Shown here: positions 4,490-4,766 of the stretch, piece by piece | How positions within the stretch are numbered: the first letter of the stretch is position 1 | How the letters are laid out: every line of letters begins with the position of its first letter | Virus genome (UHGV): UHGV-1698782 | DNA: 14,373 nucleotides | Direction: 5' to 3' (one strand) | Source of the DNA: a virus | Notes under the pieces: model-generated | What the model was told of the DNA's origin: nothing | Seen by the model: only the letters and a program-made list of their open reading frames with translations | The model's database searches: none | Program-made: the position numbers and the translations under genes

Positions 4490-4653
4490 AATGGCAGCCT
4501 CCTTGATTGGTGATTGAGAACCACCGCAGGAGGTCCTAAGCTCGCTGGCGGTGGACTGTACAGGGTTAGGACTACTGGCAATCAAGGGAACCAGCCCGAC
4601 CGAAGTCGGCCCCATACAGCCCACCATTGATAAGATGTGCGTGTATGTCGATA

Positions 4654-4676
4654 CAAAAAAAGACGCTGGCGCGTCT
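4654..4676 (-). terminator. Strong rho-independent terminator on the minus strand, upstream of rha
   Basis: Minus strand: AGACGC-GCCA-GCGTCT hairpin (6 bp stem, 4 nt loop) followed by a run of seven U; the plus strand shows the A-run at 4655-4661. Confidence 0.65.
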
Positions 4677-4731
4677 GTATCGCCTCGATTGTCAGCGGGG
4701 TCCTAATCCCGACACCCGTTTTATGAGGTGC
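4677..4731 (-). ncRNA. Candidate ~75-80 nt small RNA or attenuated leader, from promoter P2 to the terminator at 4654-4676
   Basis: A near-consensus promoter sits immediately upstream and an intrinsic terminator about 75 nt downstream; no ORF with an RBS lies in between. Coordinates cover the transcript body; the terminator is listed separately. Confidence 0.3.
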
Positions 4732-4737
4732 TCGCCC

Positions 4738-4766
4738 AATATAGCCCCGACATCACACGCAGTCAA
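4738..4766 (-). promoter_or_regulatory. Near-consensus sigma70 promoter (P2) firing leftward toward rha
   Basis: Minus strand: TTGACT (4766-4761), 17 nt spacer, TATATT (4743-4738). Confidence 0.5.

What the first reader, a model, noticed from the sequence alone, without database searches (positions are those of the whole stretch)
4490..4766. Promoter-to-terminator small RNA unit and structured leader upstream of the Rha antirepressor
A near-consensus leftward promoter (TTGACT-17-TATATT) is followed about 75 nt later by a strong intrinsic terminator, with no credible ORF between them. Either it makes a discrete ~80-nt sRNA or it is an attenuator gating the antirepressor and recombination genes. 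The 165-nt segment between the terminator and the rha start contains a C(UUCG)G tetraloop hairpin (4588-4605 region) and a 7-bp stem (CCACCGC/GCGGTGG, 4521-4554) whose loop carries CCTCCT, complementary to the rha Shine-Dalgarno AGGAGG 35-40 nt downstream. That is a possible RBS-sequestering switch.
Basis: partly seen in the sequence, partly recalled or inferred. Interest (0 to 1): 0.6.

Follow-up and report, generated by a model that had tools for sequence, protein, structure and literature searches.

The report
Known IsrK–C4 antisense switch upstream of rha
The promoter-to-terminator unit and "structured leader" are two already-described phage RNAs, an IsrK-type decoy sRNA and a C4 antisense RNA, which together form the phage P1/Gifsy-1 type of RNA switch that keeps an antirepressor-like gene (rha) untranslated.

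Summary
They are not new. Rfam places isrK at 4731-4656 (64.8 bits, cut-off 50) and C4 antisense RNA at 4631-4544 (78.9 bits, cut-off 45), both on the minus strand. A 98% identical Stx2 phage record already carries both annotations.

The layout matches P1 immI and the Gifsy-1 isrK locus: promoter, then a1/b1 decoy sites inside a terminated 76-nt sRNA, then C4 with a'/b', then a2/b2 targets, with b2 covering the rha Shine-Dalgarno.

Across 31 distinct homologues, a1/a'/a2 and b1/b'/b2 co-vary three ways. There are at least 8 a-types and about 10 b-types. Pairing is 91-99%, against 29-52% in slid controls.

Its loop presents a2, and its 5' arm is the 3' strand of the C4 outer stem, so it belongs to an alternative precursor fold.

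The CCUCCU anti-SD idea is not supported: 75% pairing, absent in several homologues, and SD accessibility no lower than in shuffled controls.

Verdict: ordinary, already known, and interpretation partly right.

The parts
4738..4766 (-). Sigma-70 type promoter, TTGACT-17-TATATT. The inferred start is G4731, 7 nt after the -10 hexamer.
   Evidence: In homologues with unrelated promoter sequence, a -10 hexamer ends at the same distance from the isrK 5' end. This holds in Gifsy-1, where numbering from the Rfam isrK 5' end reproduces the residues named in the published mutagenesis.
4656..4731 (-). IsrK-family sRNA (76 nt): hairpin 1 at 4731-4712, hairpin 2 at 4711-4696, then a single-stranded spacer and the terminator.
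   Evidence: Rfam RF01394, 64.8 bits against a gathering score of 50, E = 3e-12. Hairpin pairs are conserved.
4700..4706 (-). a1 site (UUAGGAC), in the loop of IsrK hairpin 2. It is complementary to C4 a'.
   Evidence: a1-a' is 98.6% paired in 31 sequences, and 6 of 7 pairs show double changes. Cognate duplexes average -8.2 kcal/mol against -2.0 for non-cognate.
4683..4691 (-). b1 site (CAAUCGAGG), complementary to the C4 b' loop.
   Evidence: b1-b' is 91.3% paired, and 8 of 9 pairs show double changes. Cognate -11.5 against non-cognate -4.3 kcal/mol.
4655..4676 (-). Intrinsic terminator: 6-bp stem, GCCA loop, 7 U.
   Evidence: It is conserved in all homologues in two sequence variants.
4649..4682 (-). 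Helix extension that forms only in read-through RNA. CGAUACA (4682-4676) pairs with UGUAUCG (4655-4649) and bridges the U-tract.
   Evidence: It appears in the MFE of 15 of 16 representative sequences, with different sequences in different lineages. The exception, L019, carries G-to-A at the last position of the 3' arm and folds otherwise.
4544..4631 (-). C4 antisense RNA: outer stem 4626-4610 with 4565-4549; UUCG hairpin 4609-4596; hairpin 2 at 4595-4574.
   Evidence: Rfam RF01695, 78.9 bits against 45, E = 2e-14. The outer stem is 100% paired with 7 compensatory pairs, and all 5 pairs of hairpin 1 are compensatory.
4579..4587 (-). b' (CCUUGAUUG), in the 12-nt loop of C4 hairpin 2.
4566..4572 (-). 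a' (GUCCUAA), in the single-stranded junction of C4.
4521..4554 (-). Its 5' arm is the 3' strand of the C4 outer stem, and its loop displays a2.
   Evidence: Paired in 31 of 31 sequences, with A-U<->G-C and U-A<->C-G double changes. RNAalifold predicts it independently.
4533..4539 (-). a2 site (UUAGGAC), the C4 a' target in the mRNA leader.
   Evidence: The five a'-a2 pairs that are aligned in register are 92.9% paired, and all five show compensatory changes. Cognate -8.3 against non-cognate -3.1 kcal/mol.
4501..4509 (-). b2 site (CAAUCAAGG), the C4 b' target. It overlaps the rha Shine-Dalgarno AGGAGG (4503-4498).
   Evidence: b'-b2 is 92.4% paired, with 8 of 9 pairs compensatory. Cognate -13.8 against non-cognate -5.8 kcal/mol.
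3842..4489 (-). rha: a Rha-family regulator of 215 aa, annotated 'antirepressor' in identical and related phages. This is the regulated cargo gene.
   Evidence: Pfam Phage_pRha, E = 7e-29. Annotation.
4613..4647 (-). Alternative helix in which the spacer (4647-4634) pairs with the C4 5' strand (4625-4613). It is part of the precursor 'conformer A'.
   Evidence: Present in the window MFE and in the RNAalifold consensus with compensatory changes, for example GC:20/AU:13, CG:22/UA:13 and CG:17/GC:14.

Best explanation
The region is a complete P1-immI / Gifsy-1-isrK type RNA control cassette in the early-left arm of a lambda-like (Stx-phage-related) prophage.

Proposed sequence of events:
1. The promoter at 4766-4738 starts transcription at about G4731.
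2. Most transcripts stop at the terminator (4676-4655). This gives a 76-nt IsrK-family sRNA that displays a1 in a hairpin loop and b1 in a single-stranded stretch.
3. Read-through transcripts carry the C4 antisense RNA (4631-4544). By analogy with P1, RNase P probably excises it as a roughly 77-80-nt tRNA-like RNA.
4. C4 pairs through a' and b' with a2 (4539-4533) and b2 (4509-4501) in the rha leader. Because b2 overlaps the Shine-Dalgarno, the ribosome is excluded and Rha is not made.
5. By analogy with P1, the untranslated RNA would then be open to Rho, protecting the lysogen from downstream kil, recT and exo.
6. IsrK carries the same target sequences (a1, b1). It competes for C4, both in cis within the precursor and in trans as the short sRNA. 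The balance of terminated to read-through transcripts would therefore set whether Rha is translated.

What is shown here: family membership, the anatomy, and three-way co-variation of the pairing sites. What is shown elsewhere, in Gifsy-1: the promoter, the short and long RNAs, a1-a' pairing by compensatory mutation, and more than 100-fold translational activation by IsrK in trans. What is inferred: RNase P processing, Rho polarity, the direction of regulation in this phage, and that Rha is an antirepressor.
For: Both Rfam families score above their gathering thresholds. The same isrK and C4 pair lies upstream of the homologous start region in 14 of 15 diverse loci, including the P1-like phage JL22, and also in Gifsy-1. 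The C4 fold is 99-100% paired, with many compensatory changes. a1-a' is 98.6% paired, b1-b' 91.3%, b'-b2 92.4% and a'-a2 92.9%. In all four, 0 of 500 shuffles reach the observed covariation score, and slid controls give 29-52% pairing. There are 19 distinct a'/b' combinations, in which all three copies of a site change together. Cognate duplexes are 5-8 kcal/mol more stable than non-cognate ones. Numbering Gifsy-1 from the Rfam isrK start places the published G28/G31 in a1, C159/C162 in a', and the 'orf45' AUG107 at the base of the C4 outer stem (PMC4825925). The idea that a1/b1 compete with a2/b2 for C4 was already proposed for P1 (Weinberg 2010, Additional file 1). GenBank LC710660.1, 98.3% identical, annotates 'C4 antisense RNA' and 'isrK Hfq binding RNA' at this site.
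Against: There is no transcript, processing or reporter data for this phage. In Gifsy-1, a1 mutations in cis raised basal translation. A pure decoy model does not obviously predict that result. The authors explain their data instead by alternative folds of the long RNA and translation of 'orf45'. The c4-a1b1 model (RF03163) scores only 19.9 bits here against a cut-off of 46.7. Unlike P1, no icd-like ORF lies between C4 and the regulated gene. The cargo differs from the characterised systems: Rha here, ORF6N-domain AnrP in Gifsy-1, Icd/Ant in P1. The antirepressor function of Rha is annotation only.
Confidence: 0.8

Rival explanations
1. One reading: a purely cis-acting RBS-sequestering leader. 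CCUCCU (4533-4528), in the loop of the 7-bp hairpin, pairs with the rha SD AGGAGG (4503-4498), and a structural switch opens or closes the RBS without a trans-acting RNA.
For: When the leader downstream of C4 is folded alone, the window MFE does pair CCUCCU with AGGAGG, around an inner hairpin GGUGGUU/AAUCACC. A CCUC/GAGG core is present in most homologues.
Against: Only 75% of cells pair, and 4 of the 6 positions are unpaired in 10-13 of 31 sequences. yong2, PA28 and Gifsy-1 lack the motif. SD accessibility matches that seen with shuffled upstream sequence: window 0.21 against 0.26 +/- 0.11, and 0.28 against 0.36 averaged over 18 representatives. Every strongly conserved feature of the segment is accounted for by C4 and its targets.
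Confidence: 0.1
2. A P4-like transcription attenuator. C4 pairs with a1/b1 on the nascent RNA and changes the efficiency of the isrK terminator, as P4 CI RNA does with seqA/seqC. Control would then act mainly on read-through rather than on translation. This could operate in addition to the best explanation.
For: b1 (4691-4683) ends one nucleotide before the sequence that forms the base of the extended terminator helix. a1/b1 co-vary with a'/b' as tightly as a2/b2 do. Hershko-Shalev et al. raise this analogy. IsrK in trans raised the transcriptional fusion 8-fold in Gifsy-1.
Against: In Gifsy-1 the translational effect (139-fold) far exceeds the transcriptional one (8-fold). Constitutive STnc1160 did not counteract IsrK. 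In P1 the transcriptional effect is secondary to translational repression, according to established knowledge of Biere, Citron & Schuster 1992, which was not read here.
Confidence: 0.2
3. The C4 region is really coding: an 'orf45'-like upstream ORF, or a 261-aa N-terminally extended Rha starting at AUG 4627. Regulation would then work through its translation.
For: The frame from AUG 4627 is open and in frame with rha in the window, and in 23 of 31 distinct homologues. Several GenBank records annotate the long form. The Gifsy-1 study reported that mutating the 'orf45' start and inserting stop codons reduced activation.
Against: Stop codons occur in four sequences of this set (L006, L012, the P1-like JL22, and Kp4865). 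Frameshifts occur in PA28, L025 and L045, and in Gifsy-1, which is outside the set. The AUG sits in the 17-bp outer stem and has no SD. Substitutions follow RNA pairing rules, not codon positions. Indel lengths are multiples of three no more often than chance predicts.
Confidence: 0.07

Closest known systems
Gifsy-1 isrK-orf45(STnc1160)-anrP locus of Salmonella (Hershko-Shalev et al. 2016, PMC4825925)
   Same: Own promoter, then a roughly 77-nt IsrK sRNA ending at an intrinsic terminator that is partly read through, then a C4-family RNA, then an antirepressor-like gene. a1/b1, a'/b' and a2/b2 are all present, and b2 overlaps the SD. Two alternative folds of the long RNA are seen, matching conformers A and B found here.
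   Different: The genomic site differs: next to Q in Gifsy-1, in the early-left arm between the immunity region and kil/recT/exo here. The cargo differs: ORF6N-domain AnrP against Rha, with no detectable similarity. The specificity type differs: a = UUGGCGU and b = AUCACCG in Gifsy-1, against UUAGGAC and CAAUCAAGG here. The 'orf45' frame ends at the anrP start in Gifsy-1 but is fused in frame to rha here.
immI operon of phages P1 and P7 (c4-icd-ant; Citron & Schuster 1990)
   Same: C4 antisense RNA cut from the same transcript as its target. a'/b' pair with a2/b2 at an RBS, and a1/b1 lie upstream. Specificity is set by these short sequences, which is the basis of P1/P7 heteroimmunity. The P1-like phage JL22 shows the same isrK + C4 layout and the same RBS and first codons, GGAGGCUGCCAUUGUGGCUACUAUC.
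   Different: In P1 the RBS belongs to icd, and its translation is coupled to ant. Here b2 covers the SD of rha itself, with no intervening ORF. The P1 promoter is under C1 control. No operator shared with the cI-cro region was found at this promoter.
Phage P4 CI RNA with seqA/seqC
   Same: A small RNA processed from an untranslated leader, with target sequences both upstream and downstream of itself on the same transcript (as summarised).
   Different: P4 CI acts by causing premature transcription termination. Here the downstream target covers an RBS.
Phage P22 sar RNA / ant
   Same: A small RNA that prevents antirepressor translation in a temperate enterobacterial phage (table).
   Different: sar is a true cis-antisense transcript from the opposite strand. 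Here, regulator and target are on the same strand, with short discontinuous complementarity.

Membership tests
isrK Hfq-binding RNA (Rfam RF01394) | Covariance-model score at or above the curated gathering score | tested here: met
   64.8 bits against 50, E = 3e-12, full-length match to model positions 1-77 at 4731-4656 (-).
isrK Hfq-binding RNA (Rfam RF01394) | Two 5' hairpins followed by a Rho-independent terminator, transcribed from its own promoter | tested here: met
   Hairpins and terminator are present and conserved. The -10 hexamer lies at a fixed distance from the 5' end across homologues with different promoter sequences.
isrK Hfq-binding RNA (Rfam RF01394) | A discrete roughly 77-nt transcript that binds Hfq and activates translation of the read-through mRNA in trans | not testable with these tools
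   Shown only for Gifsy-1 (PMC4825925).
C4 antisense RNA (Rfam RF01695) | Covariance-model score at or above the gathering score | tested here: met
   78.9 bits against 45, E = 2e-14, model positions 1-87 at 4631-4544 (-).
C4 antisense RNA (Rfam RF01695) | A long outer stem enclosing two hairpins, supported by covariation | tested here: met
   The three helices are 100%, 98.7% and 100% paired. Of their pairs, 7 of 17, 5 of 5 and 1 of 5 carry double changes.
C4 antisense RNA (Rfam RF01695) | a' and b' complementary to a2/b2 downstream, with one site at the RBS of the regulated gene | tested here: met
   In the window, a'-a2 is 7 bp and b'-b2 is 9 bp, covering AAGG of the SD. Across 31 sequences pairing is 92-93% with compensatory changes. 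Cognate duplexes are more stable than non-cognate ones.
C4 antisense RNA (Rfam RF01695) | a1/b1 copies of the target upstream of C4 | tested here: met
   a1 at 4706-4700 and b1 at 4691-4683, with 98.6% and 91.3% pairing across homologues.
C4 antisense RNA (Rfam RF01695) | Excision from the precursor by RNase P to give a roughly 77-nt RNA | not testable with these tools
   CCA follows the outer stem directly (4548-4546), as in the P1-like sequence. Processing itself is unknown here.
P1 immI operon architecture | The target RBS belongs to a small ORF (icd/orfX) whose translation is coupled to ant | tested here: not met
   b2 overlaps the SD of the 215-aa rha gene itself, and no ORF intervenes.
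c4-a1b1 motif (Rfam RF03163) | Covariance-model score at or above the gathering score | tested here: not met
   19.9 bits against 46.7 at 4744-4692. PA28 and Gifsy-1 do pass, at 50.1 and 48.1 bits. The a1 hairpin is present, but the 5' part of that model is not matched.
Cis-acting RBS-sequestering leader (anti-SD switch) | An anti-SD / SD helix conserved with covariation, and SD accessibility lower than composition alone would give | tested here: not met
   75% of cells paired, with 4 of 6 positions often unpaired. Window accessibility gives z = -0.49 against shuffles.

The most novel reading that the evidence does not exclude
The read-through RNA may be a two-state precursor in which both states are under selection.

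State B: the mature tRNA-like C4 fold.

On this reading, the choice between states decides whether C4 is ever released. IsrK would act as an anti-antisense decoy. The Gifsy-1 'orf45' would be C4 rather than a coding ORF. That would merge the P1 and Gifsy-1 models into one. The mix-and-match a and b sequence types would form a second RNA-based immunity code among Stx and related prophages.
Probability: 0.35. Interest if true: 0.45.

Novelty: already known. Interest (0 to 1): 0.22.

Why it matters
For this window it settles the annotation. The 'sRNA unit' and 'structured leader' are the isrK and C4 RNA genes of a known antirepressor-control cassette. The 261-aa ORF that gene callers extend through C4 is most likely an artefact.

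More broadly, this cassette sits in many Stx-converting phages. It may therefore influence spontaneous induction and toxin release, but that would have to be shown experimentally.

The one point that goes a little beyond the literature read here is a mapping result. The published Gifsy-1 mutations fall exactly on a1, a' and the C4 outer stem. This suggests that the two published models, P1 'C4 represses' and Gifsy-1 'IsrK activates orf45', describe one mechanism.

Tried and rejected
1. Anti-SD switch. Tested by pair counts, per-homologue folding and shuffle controls. Rejected as a conserved feature.
2. Coding potential of the C4 region or an extended Rha. Rejected because of stops and frameshifts in several lineages and RNA-type substitution patterns.
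3. A shared cI operator at the isrK promoter. A 9-mer comparison with the cI-cro intergenic region found nothing. By eye, no LexA box is present.
4. RNAcofold of C4 with the leader or with IsrK. Uninformative, because loop-loop (pseudoknotted) contacts cannot be represented. Short-segment duplex energies were used instead.
5. duplexfold on whole RNAs. Meaningless, because it ignores intramolecular structure.
6. The MAFFT register for a2 in the GUGGAAA-type sequences is off by a 3-nt gap. Two a'-a2 pairs therefore score low, and energies were used for those.
7. The P1 genome paper (PMC523184) is not held. The primary P1 papers were not available, so statements about RNase P processing and Rho polarity rest on established knowledge, not on text read here.
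8. The large protein and structure searches were not used, because the question is about RNA.

Full report
OBSERVATION

On the minus strand the window reads as follows:
- TTGACT (4766-4761), a 17-nt spacer, then TATATT (4743-4738).
- Seven nucleotides later, G4731, the inferred transcription start.
- At 4676-4661, the hairpin AGACGC-GCCA-GCGUCU, followed by seven U (4661-4655).

No ORF of 20 aa or more starts between the promoter and the terminator.

The terminator is 166 nt from the rha ATG (4489-4487). It also contains the stem CCACCGC (4554-4548) / GCGGUGG (4527-4521) with CCUCCU (4533-4528) in its loop, and AGGAGG at 4503-4498.

So the description is accurate. Consensus matches of this kind are not rare in the region: 6 promoter-like sites against 3.4 expected, and 5 terminator-like against 2.3. 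The case therefore rests on the evidence below.

IDENTITY

A scan of the whole window against Rfam at curated thresholds gave three hits:
- isrK (RF01394) at 4731-4656 (-), 64.8 bits against a cut-off of 50.
- C4 antisense RNA (RF01695) at 4631-4544 (-), 78.9 bits against 45.
- An unrelated sok element at 13773-13947 (+).

The c4-a1b1 model matches only weakly: 19.9 bits against 46.7.

The 'promoter-to-terminator unit' is therefore an isrK gene. The first 88 nt of the 'leader' are a C4 gene, and the UUCG hairpin is C4's internal hairpin. UNCG loops are the commonest type there, found in 233 of 492 sequences (Weinberg 2010, Additional file 1).

The segment is 100% identical to Escherichia phage PhiR12_3 and 94-98% identical to many Stx-converting phages. 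One of these, LC710660.1 (98.3% identical), already annotates 'C4 antisense RNA' and 'isrK Hfq binding RNA' at this position.

CONTEXT

The downstream gene (4489-3842) has a Phage_pRha domain, E = 7e-29. It is annotated as an antirepressor in related records. It is followed by kil, a RecT-family gene and exo.

Upstream on the same strand are:
- A lambda-type cI (7699-8412).
- A ClpP/SDH-like protease ORF.
- A hicAB pair on the other strand.
- A promoter-like site at 5206-5178 that contains a lambda-operator-like sequence.

ANATOMY AND COMPARATIVE TEST

By eye, the C4 hairpin-2 loop contains CCUUGAUUG (b', 4587-4579). The C4 junction contains GUCCUAA (a', 4572-4566). Their complements each occur twice:
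- CAAUCGAGG just before the terminator (b1, 4691-4683), and CAAUCAAGG overlapping the SD (b2, 4509-4501).

To test these, I collected 79 viral loci encoding Rha relatives and six diverse phage records. Rfam finds isrK and C4 side by side in 14 of 15 representatives, including the P1-like phage JL22.

An alignment of 36 sequences, 31 of them distinct (A1), gave these pair counts:

| Helix | Cells paired | Pairs with double changes |
|---|---|---|
| C4 outer stem | 100% | 7 of 17 |
| b'-b2 | 92.4% | 8 of 9 |
| a'-a2 | 92.9% | 5 of 5 pairs in register |
| a1-a' | 98.6% | 6 of 7 |
| b1-b' | 91.3% | 8 of 9 |

In some searches, 0 of 500 shuffles reached the observed covariation score. Slid-register controls gave 29-52% pairing.

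There are 19 distinct a'/b' combinations, built from at least 8 a-types and about 10 b-types. Within each, all three copies of a site change together. Cognate duplexes are more stable than non-cognate ones by 5-8 kcal/mol. This is the signature of a trans-pairing antisense system with exchangeable specificity, as known for P1 and P7.

LINK TO THE EXPERIMENTAL SYSTEM

In Gifsy-1, isrK (34316-34240), C4 (34214-34131) and anrP (ATG at 34076) have the same layout. Numbering from the isrK 5' end reproduces every residue named by Hershko-Shalev et al.:
- G28 and G31 lie in a1.
- C159 and C162 lie in a'.
- The first 'orf45' AUG (A107) lies at the base of the C4 outer stem.
- G114, G173 and C175 lie in that stem.

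Their compensatory pairs G28-C162 and G31-C159 therefore demonstrate a1-a' pairing. Their 'orf45/STnc1160' is the C4 RNA.

That study also shows, for Gifsy-1:
- The isrK promoter drives the downstream gene.
- The terminator is partly read through.
- The long RNA is translationally silent.
- Short IsrK in trans activates translation more than 100-fold.

Gifsy-1 also has a2 and b2, with b2 at the anrP SD. The passages I read do not discuss this.

The idea that a1/b1 compete with a2/b2 for C4 goes back to Citron & Schuster, as summarised by Weinberg et al..

It is paired in 31 of 31 sequences. Two positions show true double changes, A-U<->G-C and U-A<->C-G. The same 5'-arm columns stay paired to the C4 5' strand through wobble pairs.

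Its 5' arm is the 3' strand of the C4 outer stem, so the two structures exclude each other.

RNAalifold, run without any guidance, returns a consensus I call 'conformer A'. It contains:
- IsrK hairpin 1.
- a1.a' and b1.b' paired in cis.
- A co-varying helix between the spacer and the C4 5' strand.
- The UUCG hairpin.

In the window this fold is the MFE at -101.3 kcal/mol. Enforcing the C4 fold gives -96.7 kcal/mol. These correspond to structures A and B of the Gifsy-1 paper.

Weinberg et al. had already noted hairpins that overlap the 3' half of the C4 outer stem. Here the hairpin has no U-tract and is not terminator-like.

THE ANTI-SD PROPOSAL

Folding the leader alone does pair CCUCCU with AGGAGG. 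Against it:
- The helix is only 75% paired across homologues, and 4 of its 6 positions are often unpaired.
- The motif is absent in yong2, PA28 and Gifsy-1.
- SD accessibility is no lower than with dinucleotide-shuffled upstream sequence: window 0.21 against 0.26 +/- 0.11, and 0.28 against 0.36 over 18 representatives.

I therefore reject it as the conserved mechanism.

CODING RIVAL

The frame from AUG 4627 runs into rha in frame. It is open in 23 of 31 distinct homologues. However, it carries stops in four sequences of this set (L006, L012, the P1-like phage JL22, and Kp4865). It is out of frame in PA28, L025 and L045, and also in Gifsy-1, which is outside the set. The AUG is buried in the 17-bp stem and has no SD.

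MECHANISM AND UNCERTAINTY

The best-supported reading has three parts:
- C4 blocks the rha RBS through a'/a2 and b'/b2.
- IsrK antagonises C4 through a1/b1.
- Terminator read-through and precursor folding set the balance.

Family membership and anatomy are shown here. RNase P processing, Rho polarity and the antirepressor role of Rha are inferred from P1 and from annotation.

One published result does not fit a simple decoy model: a1 mutations in cis raise basal expression in Gifsy-1. This indicates that precursor folding also matters.

VERDICT

This is an ordinary, already-described regulatory cassette.

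Noticed in passing
window 13773-13947 (+): Full-length match to the sok antitoxin RNA of a hok/sok-type toxin-antitoxin locus (Rfam RF01794, 119.3 bits against a cut-off of 59).
   Followed up: no
window 5418-6071 (+): A perfect consensus promoter (TTGACA-17-TATAAT, 5418-5446), followed by a HicA-toxin ORF (5476-5730) and a HicB-antitoxin ORF (5727-6071). This pair lies on the strand opposite to the early-left genes, between the immunity region and the isrK cassette.
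   Followed up: partly
window 5221-5086 (-): A likely PL region. The promoter-like site TTTACA-17-TATATT (5206-5178) has a spacer containing ATCACCGCAAGTTATAT, which resembles lambda operators. It is followed by a boxB-like hairpin GCCCUUACACAGGGC (5155-5141) and an exact rrn-type boxA, TGCTCTTTAACAA (5098-5086). No N gene is annotated in the identical phage PhiR12_3. Antiterminated PL transcripts might read through the isrK terminator on induction.
   Followed up: partly
window 4682-4676 with 4655-4649 (-): Sequences flanking the isrK terminator hairpin and its U-tract are complementary (CGAUACA/UGUAUCG). In read-through RNA, the hairpin is therefore extended by 7 bp, with the U-run looped out. 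The extension appears in the MFE of 15 of 16 representative homologues, with different sequences (GCGCAU/AUGCGU, GACAC/GUGUC, CGACAA/UUGUCG). L019, with a G-to-A change in the 3' arm, is the exception. Its function is unknown; it may be a processing site or a stabiliser.
   Followed up: partly
L032 1410-1486: One relative carries an 11-copy tandem expansion of CCAAUCA between the a2 hairpin and the RBS. This multiplies a sequence that overlaps the b2 site (CAAUCA...).
   Followed up: no
L025 and L083 (phage SfV), leader regions: Two apparent mismatched cassettes. In L025, a1 (UUAGCAC) does not match its own a' (GUAGCAA). In SfV, a2 (UUGCCGU) has lost complementarity to its a' (cognate energy -2.8 kcal/mol). 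These may be recombinants or derepressed variants.
   Followed up: no
L038 1367-1456: In one group of loci, the same Rha N-terminus and RBS are preceded by an RNA that matches sRNA-Xcc1 (RF02221, 67.4 bits) instead of C4. By eye, it has its own b-like triple repeat (CAGUUAAG / CUUAACUG). This suggests sRNA-Xcc1 is a functional analogue of C4.
   Followed up: no
L033, L034, L040, L042, L075 (about 250-300 nt upstream of isrK) and L077 (about 1.1 kb upstream): DicF antisense RNA genes (RF00039, 49-77 bits) lie on the same strand upstream of the isrK promoter in several relatives. The window has none.
   Followed up: no
window 4627-3842 (-), and the GenBank CDS of phiP27 (P27p16) and SfV (orf37): Gene callers extend the rha ORF 46 codons upstream through C4, a2 and b2, giving 261 aa. 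Some records annotate this long form, which is probably an annotation artefact.
   Followed up: yes
window 6359-7270 (-): A 303-aa ORF with a ClpP-like SDH-type serine protease domain lies downstream of cI on the same strand, in the position where lambda carries rexAB. It may be a lysogen-expressed accessory or defence gene.
   Followed up: no
window compared with PV340552.1 (L001): The window is 100% identical to PhiR12_3 across the cassette. However, the spacing between the cassette and cI differs by about 1.8 kb: cI is at 7699-8412 here, against an expected ~5881-6594. The hicAB/protease region is therefore a mosaic insertion relative to that phage.
   Followed up: no
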